Positions 25,996 through 50,379 of a DNA stretch of 64,000 bases are shown here, one piece after another. The stretch is from Eledone cirrhosa (taxonomy: Eukaryota). Positions within the stretch are counted from its first letter, which is position 1. The number at the start of each line of letters is the position of its first letter. The stretch is from NCBI GenBank assembly GCA_964016885.1, contig OZ024752.1, positions 26,598,001 through 26,662,000 of the forward strand, given 5' to 3'. The notes beneath the pieces were generated by a model that was given only the letters and a program-made list of their open reading frames with translations, made no database searches and had not been told where the DNA came from. A program made the position numbers and the translations under genes.

Positions 25996-27392
25996 TAACT
26001 CCCAATTGAGAGACATGCAAATCAGGTCACGTAGGGTACCCCCAATGGAAAGAGGCGAAGAGGACGTTCCAAGATGAAATGGTGTCTGACAATTGACAAA
26101 GACCTGAACCCCATCAACACAATTTGGAACAACATATTGATAGATGCAACTGACCGTGGTCATCACTTTGGTTGCTTCAAAAGTCTCAGGACATGGCAGC
26201 ATCTGAGTGTAAATAATTGTTTCTACTTTTAGCACAAGGCCTGCAAATACCCAGTACATTACTGGTACTTTATTTTATCGACCCGGTAAGGATGAAAGGC
26301 AAAGTTAACCTCGGCGGAATTTGAACTCAGTACGTAAAGGGCCATAGCGTTATCCTTCGAAGCATGCTGTCTGACAATCTACCGATACTGCCAAAATAAT
26401 TGTGGACTATTTCGTACTACTAAAGTCTAAAAAAAGTTTGACATTTTTCTTATCCATTTATTTCAAAATACAAAAAGTTGTTGGTTTCAGTGAACGTTGA
26501 AATAAATATTATTCTAGAAAGAGAGAAAGAGGGAGAGGGAGGGGGAGAGAACGAGAGAGTGAGAGAGAAAGAGAGTGAGAGGGAGAGAGAGTGAGAAAGT
26601 TACTTACGAGTTGGATACCTATGTGTGAAAATAATTAGAAATATTATAAAAGGTCTGTGGAATATTTCGTACTACTATCTAATAAACAAAATACCCGAAC
26701 ACGAAATAGTTGACATCCAACTCTTTTTGAACCTCCAATGAGTTGTCATTAGAATGCCATATATTCACAAAAAAATTAAACTTCTTTATAGACAAGAATA
26801 TCTCAATATTAAAGTAATTTGTATGCTGACACATTCATGTGCCTGTTTTATAATAAAATAAAATAGCATTTACTCTGCTTAAAGTTATTAATGTAATGTC
26901 ATGTGGATTTTCTTTATAGATTAACACTGCTTGCCATTGTTGTCATGTGTCATTCAAGAAAAATGACACTTGTGGTGTATGTCCTTAATGAAGAGCATTC
27001 AATTATACAGCTAGCTATAGTGGAATTCGTAAGGAAAGCTGTTAAAATATAACAAATTCACAATAGGCTATCTCTGCTCATATCTATGAAATATTCATGA
27101 AACAAATAATAATATATTATTTGGAATCCCTATTATTATTAAAGAAAATGCTTTAAAAGAAAAACAAATTAAACGGATGTTTAAGAGAAAATTTCTATAT
27201 TCAATGTATTTTTACATTATATGTAAATCATCTTGAGGTAAAATGTTTTGATATCAAATAAAATGAAAATTTATTTCAAGATACAAAAACTTCTTGGTTT
27301 TCAATGAGAGTTGAAATGAATATTATTCTAGAAAGAGAGAGCTACTTACGAGTTGGATACCGATCTGGAAAAAAAATAAAGCAATATTATAA
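25996..27392. repeat. Local segmental duplicate of ~36800-38431 (RTE fragment, SINE, two microexon cassettes)
   Basis: Long near-identical blocks, e.g. 26680-27375 vs 37720-38410. Confidence 0.9.
27350..27364 (-). CDS. 15-nt microexon ATCGGTATCCAACTC
   Basis: ttttttccag acceptor / gtaagt donor. Sibling at 26608-26622 has its acceptor mutated to cac. Confidence 0.55.
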
Positions 27393-27904
27393 TATATATA
27401 TATATATATCACGATAAATTTACGGAGCCATAGGCCCTCGTTATTCCTTGTAAATTATGTGCTCAAAGGAAAAGGAATCCTGAGATCTTTATATGCATTT
27501 TAATTTATATTTTTAATTATTGTGTGTCTACCCTGCCTTCCATAGGTAAAGAGATTCCATACACTGGTGGCTTCCTTGTTTTATTGATGGCACACGTCCC
27601 CCCCTCTCTCTCTCTCTCTCTCTCTCTCTCTCTCTCTCTCTCTCTCTCTCTCTAGTGTGTTACCCTCTCAACATATTGTATTTTATATATATATATATAT
27701 ATATATATATATATATATATATATATATATAGTATGTATGTATACGTACATACATATATGTATACAGACATACAGTAGCATGCAAATATATATACTGTAC
27801 GTCTGCTACTGTACATCTCTATACATATATGTTTAAGTAAGTGCCGTACTAAGAGTGAGAAATGAAATTTCGTTTCATTCTATTCTATATATATATATAT
27901 ACAT

Positions 27905-28888
27905 ATAAAATAATAAATCGACAAAAACTAGCTGCGCTGCCAAAAGGCTATGATGTTTATACACATTTGTCTCTGGATGTTTACTGAGGAGAGCAGTGGC
28001 ATGATATTCCTACACTTATACACTTATTCATCTCGAAACATGTTTGGATTTTAAAGTTTAAACTTATCTACGGAACAGGTTTGATTTTGAAATTTAAATG
28101 TGTATAAACATCATAGCCTTTTGGCAGCGCAGCTAGTTTTTGTCGATTTATTATTTTAAATCGATGTGGACGAACTGTAGTAAAATAATTAATATTCTTC
28201 ATTCTGGCTAAAGTTTCTTTTGCAATATAAATACAGATGTGTTGGTATCTGTTTCATCATATATATTACTCATATATATTACTTTTATACACGGCTCAGG
28301 AATATTTCCTTTTGAGCTAATTCCATTGTAAAAGAATTCATTACACTTAATAATATATAACTGCTCCTGGCTGAGCTGAAATTCGCCTCATATATACGAC
28401 TGTTATTTCTAGCAGTACGGTTATGAGACTAGCTTGAATCTGTGAACCCATGTGCGTCACACAGTCTTTTAAATTATTTAGAAGTGAAGCTTATCACTTG
28501 TCTCTGGATGTTTACTGAGGAGAGCAGTGGCATGATATTCCTACACTTATACACTTATTCATCTCGAAACATGTTTGGATTTTAAAGTTTAAACTTATCT
28601 ACGGAACAGGTTTGATTTTGAAATTTAAATGTGTATAAACATCATAGCCTTTTGGCAGCGCAGCTAGTTTTTGTCGATTTATTATTTTAAATCGATGTGG
28701 ACGAACTGTAGTAAAATAATTAATATTCTTCATTCTGGCTAAAGTTTCTTTTGCAATATAAATACAGATGTGTTGGTATCTGTTTCATCATATATATTAC
28801 TCATATATATTACTTTTATACACGGCTCAGGAATATTTCCTTTTGAGCTAATTCCATTGTAAAAGAATTCATTACACTTAATAATATA
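27905..28888 (+). mobile_element. 531-bp-period hammerhead-bearing repeat (1.7 copies) with an inverted 5' fragment
   Basis: Direct copies from 27969 and 28500; 27905-27968 is the reverse complement of ~28095-28158. gttta-CTGAGGA-gag..ctc-GAAA-catg-TT-tggat at 27979-28049 and 28510-28580. (AT)n flanks. Confidence 0.75.
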
Positions 28889-28904
28889 TATACATATATA
28901 TTTT

Positions 28905-29122
28905 TTTAACGATCGACTTTCGTCAAATCGGACCGAGGGAACAATGTTTCCGTTGGTCTTTCCAATTGCTAATACTATCTATCGGTCGTAACTCCAGGTA
29001 GAAGAAGCAACGTGAAATAAAGTGTCTTGCTCAAGGACATAACGCATCGCCTGGTCCAGGAATCGAACTCACAACCTTACGATTGCGAATCCAATTCTCT
29101 AACCACTCAGCCATACACCTTC
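28905..29122 (-). mobile_element. Second tRNA-derived SINE family
   Basis: Minus strand reads tggctgagtggttag...gagttcgattcctgg...ccttgagcaagacacttt. Confidence 0.75.
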
Positions 29123-29390
29123 ACTAATACATATATATATATACATATATACATATAAACATATATACATATATATATACATATATACATATATATACAT
29201 ATATATATATACATATATATATATATATATATATATACATATATATATATATATGTATATATATATATATATATATATATATATATATATATATATATAT
29301 ATATATATATATATATATATATATATATACATGTATATATATATATATGTGTGTATATATTTATATATATATATAAAGACACCAGGATGT

Positions 29391-48626: not shown

Positions 48627-48638
48627 AAGTAGGCATAG
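48627..48638 (-). CDS. 12-nt microexon CTATGCCTACTT
   Basis: atttttcag acceptor / gtgagt donor. Confidence 0.55.
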
Positions 48639-49111
48639 CTGAAAAATATAAGTATAATATATGTATTATAATTCATGAAAATACACATTCTTTCTTTTGT
48701 TTATTTATAATACGTCTATAAAAATAATTTTGTCCATATTCTCACTGATCATATTATGTCGCTTTCTTTACAATATCTTAAGACACTTAATAGAGAATTT
48801 CTGGCATATAACTATATTTATTCGAATATATTTGGAATTATAATTTACAAATTATTTAGATATTAGACGCTGATGAAATCTCCAGAAAACAAAACAAAAA
48901 TTAAAACAAACAAACGAATATTAAGTATATTATATCAGTATTATTTGAATGATACATTTGAAAATTTAACAATTTTTAATCTAATTTTAATATTTGACGA
49001 TTTAAAGTATTCTAGAGTATAATGGAGATTTATATAAAAATCCTGATTACTAAAAACAGAATCTATTCAGATATTTATAGAGAAGTAGAATTATGATATA
49101 CTTCTACTTAC

Positions 49112-49126
49112 GATATGCTACCGCGT
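49112..49126 (-). CDS. 15-nt microexon ACGCGGTAGCATATC
   Basis: ttcttctttttcag acceptor / gtaagt donor. Confidence 0.6.
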
Positions 49127-50364
49127 CTGAAAAAGAAGAAAAACGAAGAAAATTAAAAAAATTGAATTAATTGAAGCCCGTGTTCTTTATTAGCATGATT
49201 AGAGCATTTAGAAAAATATTTATCGGATCAAGAAATATTCTTATCGGTAAAGTGGGTTCTGGTTTTTGTCTCCAAGTTTGTGCAAGTATAAATATACACA
49301 CAGATATCCTCTTAGCTTCGTACGGACGTATGAAAACACACACACACACACACACACACACAAACACACACATAGGTATAGCTCTTTATACAAAACGGTT
49401 TTTTTTTCCATTTCGAGTAGACACGCTCCATCATCCACTCTTCTAAAAAAAAATAAATCATACACAAAACTCCAGCATCAACAGTTTTCAAAGAGATGTC
49501 TATATGAATGGACCTTTTATTTTCATCAAAACATTTTTTTCCAATTACACATCGCCCATCCTTTAATCTTTCTAATTTCTCATGTTTTCTTCTTCTGAAG
49601 GACTGGCGTCCGAAATGTTAAGACCCTCTTCCTGTTATTTCAAGGGTTAACCTAGTATGTTCGTTCCATATACTGTACCGATTGTGTTGTTATTTTTGTT
49701 TACATTTTACACACACACACACACACCTATATATATTATAAGGACAAATTAAAGTTTGATAAAAGAATCACTGCTTTCACCCTTAACGGGATCTTCAGAA
49801 GATCTCGTTAATGGTGAAAGCAGCGATTCTTTGCTTAAACTTTAATCTGTTCTTATAATAAATATTTTCTCCGCGGGTTTTTATATTTATATGTATTTTA
49901 TATACATATATACATCCTTGACGAGCCCTCTTCGGATTTTAGTGTTCAGATTTATTGTTACCATATATATATATATATATATATATATATATATATATAT
50001 ATATATATATATATATATATATATATATATATACATATATATATATATATATATATATATATATATATATATATATATATATATATATATATATATATAT
50101 ATATTGTGATATATTGTGATATATATATACACATTCATGTGTATATATATATATAAACAAACAAACGAATATTAAGTATACTATATCAGTATTATTTGAA
50201 TAATACATTTGAAAATTTAATAATTTTTAATCTAATTTTTATATTTGAAGATATAAAATATTCTAGATTATAATGGAGATTTATATAAAAATCCTGATTA
50301 CTAAAAGCATAGAATCTATTCAGATATTTATACAGAAGTAGAATTATGAAGTACTTCTACTTAC

Positions 50365-50379
50365 GAAGTAGTAGTCCGG
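50365..50379 (-). CDS. 15-nt microexon CCGGACTACTACTTC
   Basis: ttcttctttttcag acceptor / gtaagt donor. Confidence 0.6.

What the first reader, a model, noticed from the sequence alone, without database searches (positions are those of the whole stretch)
26608..50379. Array of duplicated 12-18 nt microexons with hypervariable exon cores
Seen: nine minus-strand cassettes of polypyrimidine-AG / 12, 15 or 18 nt / GT(A/G)AGT at 50365, 49112, 48627, 45408, 44948, 38389, 37636, 27350 and 26608 (acceptor dead). All lengths are multiples of 3, and phase 1 is the only frame open in all, matching the phase-1 mucin exon (36406-36585) and exon 22822-22926. In the three paralogous cassettes at 45408, 49112 and 50365 the intron flanks are nearly identical but the exon sequences differ strongly (LGLLGL / HAVAY / PGLLL). 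Inference: a microexon-built, combinatorially spliced, fast-diversifying linker in a secreted protein, conceptually like schistosome micro-exon genes.
Basis: partly seen in the sequence, partly recalled or inferred. Interest (0 to 1): 0.75.

Follow-up and report, generated by a model that had tools for sequence, protein, structure and literature searches.

The report
Microexon-built linker in octopus ITIH4-like protein
An octopus-type gene for a predicted secreted ITIH4-like protein has eleven tiny exons (12-24 bases) in its linker; a transcript-like contig shows the first ones joined and fits ten by length, one duplicated set differs far more than the DNA around it, and the linker likely serves as the bait that proteases cut before they are trapped.

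Summary
The microexons are real. All nine cassettes are at the stated places; three more lie just outside the window. They sit between phase-1 exons in the linker of an 879-aa ITIH (VIT-vWA-linker-C domain) gene, one of three tandem paralogues in an octopod-like genome. A contig of run X4 (kind unrecorded, but spliced at GT-AG) shows four of them joined, and its length fits all ten upstream of the mucin exon. The main transcript therefore includes the array; combinatorial splicing was not seen here, though RefSeq isoforms of two O. bimaculoides relatives skip 5-11 residues in this linker. 'Hypervariable' holds for one of four cassette families (7-8 of 15 bases against 4-7% in flanks, on one branch, possibly one template switch) and again in a 15-microexon array of a paralogue on another contig. 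It is not a schistosome-type MEG (6% of the coding sequence). The linker lies where human ITIH4 has its protease-susceptible bait region. Best reading: a bait diversified by microexon duplication, as in alpha-2-macroglobulin/TEP (0.45; cleavage and trapping untested). The main rival is a near-neutral mucin spacer, since unchecked notes suggest such arrays are common in this genome.

The parts
50365..50379 (-). 15-nt phase-1 microexon, family F1, core GLLL
   Evidence: splice signals; its first 3 bases are seen joined in the X4 contig; rest by length
49112..49126 (-). 15-nt phase-1 microexon, family F1, core AVAY (identical to the out-of-window copy at 68453-68439)
48627..48638 (-). 12-nt phase-1 microexon, family F2, core MPT
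45408..45425 (-). 18-nt phase-1 microexon, family F1, core GLLGL (3-nt insertion relative to 50379)
44948..44959 (-). 12-nt phase-1 microexon, family F2, core MPT
38389..38403 (-). 15-nt phase-1 microexon, family F3, core RYPT
37636..37650 (-). 15-nt phase-1 microexon, family F4, core RYPT
36406..36585 (-). 180-nt phase-1 Thr/Pro/His-rich (mucin-like) exon with 18/36-nt internal repeats
   Evidence: X4 contig at depth 370 leaves the genome exactly at donor 36406, X1-X3 contigs run on into the intron
27350..27364 (-). 15-nt phase-1 microexon, duplicate of F3 (RYPT)
   Evidence: contig length 497 = 92+15+105+255+30 fits inclusion; inferred only
26608..26622 (-). duplicate of F4 with acceptor AG lost (CAC); probably a dead exon
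   Evidence: contig length does not favour its inclusion
22822..22926 (-). 105-nt phase-1 exon, start of the Cys-containing C-terminal domain
   Evidence: 42-53% identical to the same exon of three paralogues; tblastn
13243..13497 (-). 255-nt phase-1 exon of the C-terminal domain
12284..12405 (-). last coding exon (to the stop codon)
26210..27392 (.). segmental copy (94% identical) of 37235-38433 carrying the F3+F4 pair
   Evidence: self-blast
693..9220 (-). first four exons (signal, VIT) of the next tandem ITIH paralogue, B
   Evidence: tblastn

Best explanation
The cassettes are symmetric phase-1 microexons, multiplied by tandem duplication of exon-plus-intron units, in the 117-residue linker of an octopod ITIH4-like protein, and this linker likely works as a protease bait whose sequence is likely diversified by selection. 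Shown: the gene structure (VIT, vWA with the MIDAS residues, linker, C-terminal domain; one 879-aa open frame), the duplication units, splicing of the first four microexons in one contig, and faster change in exon cores than flanks in one family here and in a paralogue. Inferred from length: all ten upstream microexons and 27364 are in the main transcript. Inferred by position and analogy: a protease cuts the exposed linker (Tyr, Leu, Met, Arg and Ala/Val sites are offered by the AVAY, MPT, GLLL/GLLGL and RYPT modules), and the N-terminal fragment then holds the protease through the vWA MIDAS and blocks large substrates, as human ITIH4 does. Because any subset of the exons keeps the frame, gain, loss, rewriting and (in some relatives) skipping of modules would change which proteases are caught without touching the folded domains.
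For: Gene model: 23 exons, 2640 nt, single stop; DVSGS, GGT and LTDG MIDAS motifs present; vWA by Pfam on this gene's exon. Homologue P0020 residues 29-606 align to human ITIH4 34-606 (E 1.6e-86), and its C-terminal part resembles ITI_HC_C (Atlas 0.90, 178 shared features), so the linker lies opposite ITIH4's protease-susceptible region, residues 633-713 (PMC7793589, abstract and passages). X4 contig of 299 nt, depth 209, joins 72992 to 71930 over a 1061-nt GT-AG intron; its next 30 letters are AVAY exon + MPT exon + the first 3 bases of 50379; the loose part is 159 nt = 129 (nine microexons) + 30. F1 exons differ at 7-8 of 15 bases across types, flanks at 15-27 of 406-409, and no 15-nt flank window exceeds 4. 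Paralogue D: 15 tandem units; 10 of 21 exon columns vary against 72 of 1414 intron columns; 8 of 8 distinct codon changes alter the residue. RefSeq isoforms of two O. bimaculoides genes (5 and 3 proteins) differ only by 5-11-residue skips in this linker. Linkers are unrelated among octopod paralogues and species while flanking domains align. 0 of 4096 exon subsets give a stop. Bait regions of invertebrate A2M/TEP are diversified by alternative exons (PMC7016707, passages).
Against: No cleavage, complex or inhibition data exist for any octopod ITIH. Orthology to vertebrate ITIH4 was not tested, and the C-terminal alignment to ITIH4 is not significant by sequence. Three of four cassette families show no excess divergence. 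All F1 changes fall on one internal branch (6 of 8 informative flank sites give the same split), and 6 of 8 could come from one template switch off the exon's own donor region (null P about 0.05). In paralogue D, 8 of 1394 intron windows are as variable as the exon. No skipping was seen for this gene. Half the linker is a Thr/Pro mucin stretch that may be a glycosylated spacer. Unchecked notes report microexon arrays, some fast-changing, in intracellular regions of other genes of this genome, so the pattern need not be bait-specific.
Confidence: 0.45

Rival explanations
1. The linker is a flexible, O-glycosylated spacer whose length and sequence are nearly neutral. Microexons pile up by tandem duplication, a general habit of this genome, and are kept only if they preserve the frame. 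The F1 divergence is one or two multi-base mutations (template switch, 3-nt insertion), or old divergence left standing while flanks were homogenised.
For: F2, F3 and F4 cores are invariant in protein; F1 changes are on one branch; the GLLL exon forms a 6-bp hairpin with its own donor and one inverted template explains 6 of 8 differences; linker is 26% Thr and 16% Pro; a dead copy (26622) is tolerated; 27 notes on microexons in this genome (unchecked).
Against: Paralogue D repeats the exon-over-intron excess with scattered changes, also after removing the three divergent copies (6 of 24 against 11 of 482, Fisher 5e-5), all amino-acid-changing. The template-switch test is borderline (P about 0.05). 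Homogenised flanks around a persisting different core would itself need selection.
Confidence: 0.3
2. One reading: the main role of the array is combinatorial splicing that yields many linker isoforms within one animal, as in schistosome MEGs.
For: Every subset keeps the frame (1940 distinct peptides from 4096 subsets). RefSeq models of two O. bimaculoides relatives skip 5-, 6-, 10- and 11-residue blocks here. A human ITIH4 isoform skips the exons of the susceptible region (PMC12455821, passages).
Against: The only contig through the array fits full inclusion and does not branch, though it is one sample and contigs drop rare forms. Splice sites are strong (GTAAGT/GTGAGT). RNA support behind the RefSeq models was not seen.
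Confidence: 0.13
3. The protein is a matrix, mucus, ink or reproductive-fluid component, and the linker is a fast-changing binding or adhesive surface rather than a bait.
For: Peptides listed for ITIH-like proteins of O. vulgaris ink (PMC10142993, passages) match P0001 and P0006 by eye. The mucin-like exon, and His/Arg-rich repeats in paralogue D, suit binding.
Against: No partner or tissue data for this gene; the position matches a demonstrated bait in the nearest characterised relative.
Confidence: 0.1
4. The cassettes are chance splice-like matches inside duplicated repeats or assembly artefacts, or the spliced contig comes from a processed copy.
For: A dispersed repeat end does mimic an 18-nt microexon, on both strands.
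Against: Joined exon letters in the X4 contig. X4 leaves at donor 36406 at depth 370 while X1-X3 run through at 5-9. Genome searches find one 100% copy of two of this gene's exons. Shuffle control.
Confidence: 0.02

Closest known systems
Human ITIH4 and its protease-susceptible region (PMC7793589: abstract and passages; PDB 9c4f chain I)
   Same: VIT-vWA core with MIDAS; a long Pro-rich, species-variable linker at the same position; no DPHF motif (motif recalled; absence); C-terminal domain probably homologous.
   Different: The linker here is built from eleven 12-24-nt duplicated exons plus a mucin exon; the genes are an octopod-specific expansion (at least four intron-bearing paralogues); orthology and function are untested.
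Alpha-2-macroglobulin / TEP / CD109 bait regions diversified by alternative exons (Biomphalaria BgA2M, BgTEP2; shrimp A2M; Drosophila TEP2; scallop TEP; PMC7016707: passages)
   Same: A variable, exposed region of a secreted protein is encoded by tandem exons, read as widening the range of proteases or ligands.
   Different: Different protein family (no thioester); those are mostly mutually exclusive exons, whereas here very short modules appear strung together in one transcript.
Schistosoma micro-exon genes and the MEG-like part of VAL-6 (PMC4350168: abstract and passages; PMC10526429: Introduction and passages)
   Same: Symmetric exons of about 15 nt, long introns, predicted secretion, fast amino-acid change. 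VAL-6 is likewise a conventional gene with a microexon stretch.
   Different: Microexons are 6% of this coding sequence, not most of it; a conserved multidomain host; a free-living mollusc; skipping not seen here.
RefSeq 'ITIH4-like' models of Octopus bimaculoides, O. sinensis, O. vulgaris and Argonauta
   Same: Same family and architecture; isoforms differ by short linker skips.
   Different: Only automatic names; no description of the exon array found. One-to-one orthology of gene A is unresolved (support 87/88 in the C-domain tree).

Membership tests
ITIH (inter-alpha-inhibitor heavy chain) family | VIT domain | tested here: met
   Gene A exon 145678 is 89% identical to the start of the VIT region of P0001, which scores PF08487 at E 1.5e-25; Pfam was not run on A's own VIT exons.
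ITIH (inter-alpha-inhibitor heavy chain) family | vWA domain with MIDAS | tested here: met
   PF00092 E 6.5e-10 on A's exon; DxSxS, T and D motifs present.
ITIH (inter-alpha-inhibitor heavy chain) family | N-terminal signal peptide | tested here: inconclusive
   A hydrophobic 26-codon first exon of the right phase was picked by a composition scan, 1 plausible of 7 candidates; no signal predictor was run.
ITIH (inter-alpha-inhibitor heavy chain) family | C-terminal ITI_HC_C domain | tested here: inconclusive
   Pfam gives no PF06668 hit in 7 of 7 homologues or in A's exons; the Atlas's three best hits for P0020 660-834 carry PF06668 (0.89-0.90); the AlphaFold model was unusable.
ITIH1-3 type (bikunin-linked) | Asp-Pro-His-Phe cleavage/attachment motif (recalled) | tested here: not met
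   Absent from gene A and from 12 of 12 cephalopod-type homologues; present in 25 of 87 wider representatives.
ITIH4 (bait-type protease inhibitor) | Variable Pro-rich linker between hybrid and C-terminal domains | tested here: met
   117 aa, 16% Pro, 26% Thr; position; variability.
ITIH4 (bait-type protease inhibitor) | Cleavage in the linker and MIDAS-dependent inhibitory complex | not testable with these tools
   Needs biochemistry.
ITIH4 (bait-type protease inhibitor) | Orthology to vertebrate ITIH4 rather than other ITIHs | not tested
   ITIH4 scores above ITIH1 (295 against 235 bits), but no tree with vertebrate paralogues was built.
Schistosome micro-exon genes (MEG) | Most of the coding region in very small exons (PMC4350168) | tested here: not met
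   168 of 2640 nt.
Schistosome micro-exon genes (MEG) | Symmetric microexons | tested here: met
   11 of 11 intact cassettes are multiples of 3 in phase 1.
Schistosome micro-exon genes (MEG) | Pool of isoforms by exon skipping | tested here: inconclusive
   No branch in one contig; skips in RefSeq models of relatives.
Neural microexon programme (Srrm4/eMIC type; recalled) | Conserved 3-27-nt exons, neuron-enriched inclusion | not tested
   No tissue data; the cores are not conserved across species, which argues against it.

The most novel reading that the evidence does not exclude
Octopods have turned a single ancestral ITIH into a family of ITIH4-type protease traps whose bait is a cassette of interchangeable microexons: each paralogue carries its own set (1-2 in B, up to 6 in C, 11 in A, 15 in D), modules are added by tandem duplication, rewritten under selection and in part skipped, giving a tunable anti-protease repertoire, convergent with the spliced baits of alpha-2-macroglobulins/TEPs but built from 4-9-residue modules.
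Probability: 0.3. Interest if true: 0.75.

Novelty: new variant of a known kind. Interest (0 to 1): 0.55.

Why it matters
The bait mechanism of ITIH4 was shown only in 2021 and only in mammals. A mollusc family whose matching region is assembled from duplicated microexons gives a direct way to ask whether that mechanism is ancient and whether bait sequence sets protease range: each module is a natural swap experiment. It also shows that 12-24-nt exons, which annotation often drops, can be the fastest-changing coding part of a conserved secreted protein outside parasites. If the spacer reading is right, it remains a clean, transcript-supported case of how octopod genomes grow linkers by microexon duplication.

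Tried and rejected
No RNA holder listed: none of the 4 runs found is on record as RNA; X4 was judged transcript-like only from its spliced joints. AlphaFold model of homologue P0020 (16-row alignment): mean pLDDT 37, not used, no fold search made. Searches for a protein translated from this gene's transcript found none: 0 of 52 and 0 of 3 candidates; weak evidence. Pfam on the mucin exon, the 105-nt exon, the 255-nt exon and B's exon 4: no significant family. One search's tables were swamped by a SINE, so joints near 36585-37636 were not displayed. CpG decay as the cause of the F1 divergence was rejected by reading the sequence: 5 of 8 differences are transversions. A stretch in paralogue B's linker intron that looked mitochondrial gave no convincing frame and was dropped. 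The last two exons of paralogue D were not found within the 120 kb fetched. Literature: 10 searches found no paper describing microexons or a bait in cephalopod ITIH genes; the library lacks most subscription papers, and no supplements were read, so gene lists there could mention these genes. Earlier findings near this place or with these words: none.
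Full report
Coordinates. Window coordinates are used throughout; numbers above 64000 or below 1 continue the same count along contig C12 of G000 (the window is C12:26598001-26662000). The closest named proteins are from Octopus and Argonauta (64-73% identity for most), so 'octopod-like' is an inference.

1. Observation. Eight have a pyrimidine tract, CAG, 12/15/18 nt and GTAAGT or GTGAGT; the ninth (26622-26608) has CAC in place of CAG and lies in a 94%-identical copy of the segment carrying 38403 and 37650. 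Phase 1 is the only phase open in all nine. A rule set after seeing them finds 9 minus-strand hits in the window (8 cassettes plus a 28-nt repeat end) and 2 plus-strand hits; 100 local shuffles give 0-2, and 0 in 64 of them. Over 464 kb the rule gives 13 minus-strand hits, 11 of them multiples of three inside this one interval, and 7 plus-strand hits. Three further cassettes lie upstream of the window: 71930-71907 (24 nt), 68453-68439 (15) and 67990-67979 (12). One caution: a dispersed repeat end mimics an 18-nt microexon elsewhere, on both strands, so splice-like signals alone do not prove an exon.

2. The host gene. The array lies between a 73-nt exon (73064-72992, ending in phase 1) and the 105-nt exon at 22926. 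With exons found by tblastn, 23 exons give one 879-aa open frame: hydrophobic N-terminus, VIT, vWA with DxSxS/T/D MIDAS motifs, a 117-aa linker (26% Thr, 16% Pro) and a Cys-containing C-terminal domain (vWA by Pfam). It is the middle one of three tandem ITIH genes (C, A, B); a fourth (D) and an intronless copy lie on other contigs. Homologue P0020 aligns to human ITIH4 over residues 29-606 / 34-606 (E 1.6e-86) and less well to ITIH1. Its C-terminal part has no Pfam hit but its three best Atlas neighbours carry ITI_HC_C (0.89-0.90). The DPHF motif of ITIH1-3 (recalled) is absent from A and from 12 of 12 cephalopod-type homologues, and present in 25 of 87 wider relatives.

3. Are they spliced? 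Four runs hold the gene; none is on record as RNA. X4 behaves as a transcript run. A contig at depth 370 leaves the genome exactly at the mucin exon's donor (36406), where contigs of X1-X3 (one sample) run on at depth 5-9, and X4's own intronic contigs have depth 4-14. A second contig (299 nt, depth 209) joins 72992 to 71930 across a 1061-nt GT-AG intron, then continues for 159 letters whose first 30 are the AVAY exon, the MPT exon and the first three bases of 50379 (match computed). The nine microexons after 71907 total 129 nt, leaving 30 nt of the mucin exon, which is where another X4 contig breaks (36556). Of 64 ordered subsets compatible with the 30 letters, 7 imply an overlap short enough to be possible (49 nt or less: 30, 42, 45 or 48), and only full inclusion coincides with an observed break. 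The downstream contig's 497 nt equal 92+15+105+255+30, which favours inclusion of 27364 and not 26622. So four microexons are seen joined (of the window's own, only three bases of 50379), and the rest are inferred by length. This is one sample of one study; contigs show presence, not levels, and drop rare isoforms.

4. Is it combinatorial? Any of 4096 subsets of the 12 linker exons keeps the frame, but no branch was seen. In O. bimaculoides, five RefSeq isoforms of one ITIH4-like gene differ only by 5-, 6- and 11-residue skips in this linker, and three isoforms of another by 6 and 10 residues, with junction residues changing as phase-1 exons would make them (my reading of the alignments). I did not see the RNA support behind these models, and gene A's orthology to them is unresolved (87/88 in the C-domain tree).

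5. Is it hypervariable? The units are [F1+F2] four times (one lost its F2) and [F3+F4] twice. F2 cores are identical (3 of 3); F3/F4 differ at one synonymous base. In F1, AVAY against GLLL differ at 8 of 15 bases and AVAY against GLLGL at 7 of 15 plus a 3-nt gap, while 205-nt flanks differ at 15-27 of 406-409 and never at more than 4 in a 15-nt window (Fisher 3e-7 to 7e-6, pairs not independent). By hand, 7 of the 8 change the residue and 5 are transversions. Against over-reading: flanks split the four copies the same way (6 of 8 informative sites), so this is one branch; and the GLLL exon is complementary to its own donor region, so that one inverted template explains 6 of 8 differences (null P 0.0495 in 2000 draws). 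Independent support comes from paralogue D, whose linker holds 15 tandem 1.4-kb units, each with a 21- or 24-nt phase-1 cassette: 10 of 21 gap-free exon columns vary against 72 of 1414 intron columns; without the three most divergent copies, 6 of 24 against 11 of 482 (Fisher 5e-5); 8 of 8 distinct codon changes alter the residue; 8 of 1394 intron windows are as variable. D is present in X4 at depth 27 (loose end matches the exon printed), but its microexons were not seen joined. Paralogue C has two 27-nt cassettes differing at 16 of 27 bases against 21% in flanks, and the donor-side flanks of A-F1, C and D resemble each other by eye, which suggests an old shared cassette.

6. How it most likely works. 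Human ITIH4 is cut by many proteases in a Pro-rich, species-variable region (633-713) and then traps the protease through its vWA MIDAS; the authors liken the region to the alpha-2-macroglobulin bait (PMC7793589, abstract and passages). The octopod linker is at that position, MIDAS is intact, and the modules offer Tyr, Leu, Met, Arg and Ala/Val sites (specificities from general knowledge). Invertebrate A2M/TEP baits are diversified by alternative exons (PMC7016707, passages), and one human ITIH4 isoform skips the exons of this region (PMC12455821, passages). I therefore read the array as a modular bait: shown are structure, splicing of the first modules and excess exon divergence; inferred are secretion, cleavage, trapping and selection (0.45). 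The main rival is a nearly neutral glycosylated spacer (0.30). It gained weight from unchecked notes of this scan, which report microexon arrays in many unrelated genes of this genome, including fast-changing ones on a predicted cytosolic tail. ITIH-like peptides are listed for O. vulgaris ink (PMC10142993, passages), which leaves a mucus or matrix role open.

7. Comparison and novelty. It is an ITIH; it looks ITIH4-like in layout, but membership by function or orthology is untested. It is not a MEG: most of a MEG's coding region is microexons (PMC4350168, abstract and passages; PMC10526429, Introduction and passages), here 168 of 2640 nt. PMC11538491 (passages) only restates the ITIH4 layout. 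Other papers were seen as search listings only, and no supplements were read. Ten searches found no description of this array. Verdict: real and transcript-supported, a new variant of a known kind (exon-diversified bait or linker); interest 0.55.

Noticed in passing
L046-L048 (G000:C1:10834503-10855179, + strand): ITIH paralogue D has 15 tandem 1.4-kb units, each with a 21- or 24-nt phase-1 cassette giving His/Arg-rich repeats; exon columns vary about ten times more than intron columns.
   Followed up: partly
L018-L021 (extended 226376-198841, - strand): ITIH paralogue C has two 27-nt cassettes and four 3-nt candidates in 3.5-kb tandem units; 3-nt exons would each add one residue. No transcript test.
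   Followed up: partly
L057 (G000:C7:306384 onward, + strand): Intronless ITIH open frame that ends soon after the hybrid domain in a hydrophobic tail, possibly a membrane or GPI anchor signal; representative P0040 ends similarly.
   Followed up: no
extended 77106-74374 against -10064 to -12354: Paralogues A and B are sisters in the vWA-region tree (99/96) but far apart in the C-domain tree, with a nearly identical second half of the long exon: likely gene conversion or domain shuffling.
   Followed up: partly
window 27848, 56752; extended 167800-173135 (12 tandem copies in intron 1 of gene A): The end of a dispersed repeat mimics an 18-nt microexon with good splice signals, on both strands; a source of false positives for microexon scans.
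   Followed up: partly
window 50379-50353, - strand: The GLLL exon pairs with its own 5' splice site region (6-bp stem, 3-nt loop; -6.6 kcal/mol with flanks); may affect inclusion or record a template switch.
   Followed up: partly
extended 79294-143822: Intron 4 of gene A is about 64.5 kb, while the same intron in B and C is about 4-5 kb; contents not examined beyond LINE-like frames.
   Followed up: no
L051-L052 (G000:C1:10883417-10896548): 13-kb satellite of a 48-bp unit inside D's linker region; nearly open frames on the opposite strand; further 21-bp-type repeats follow the 105-nt exon.
   Followed up: no
window 24152-25907 and 3319-6100: Near-perfect intronic tandem arrays: 310 bp x 5.7 and 593 bp x 5.
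   Followed up: no
window 32448-35983, 53123-56619, 60000-63500, 38960-40900, 15300-16700: Retroelement remnants in the introns (LINE-like reverse transcriptase frames by eye; the first two are 74% alike).
   Followed up: no
window 56798-57744: 432-nt inverted repeat (90%) with an 83-nt spacer, formed by two copies of the repeat that mimics a microexon.
   Followed up: no
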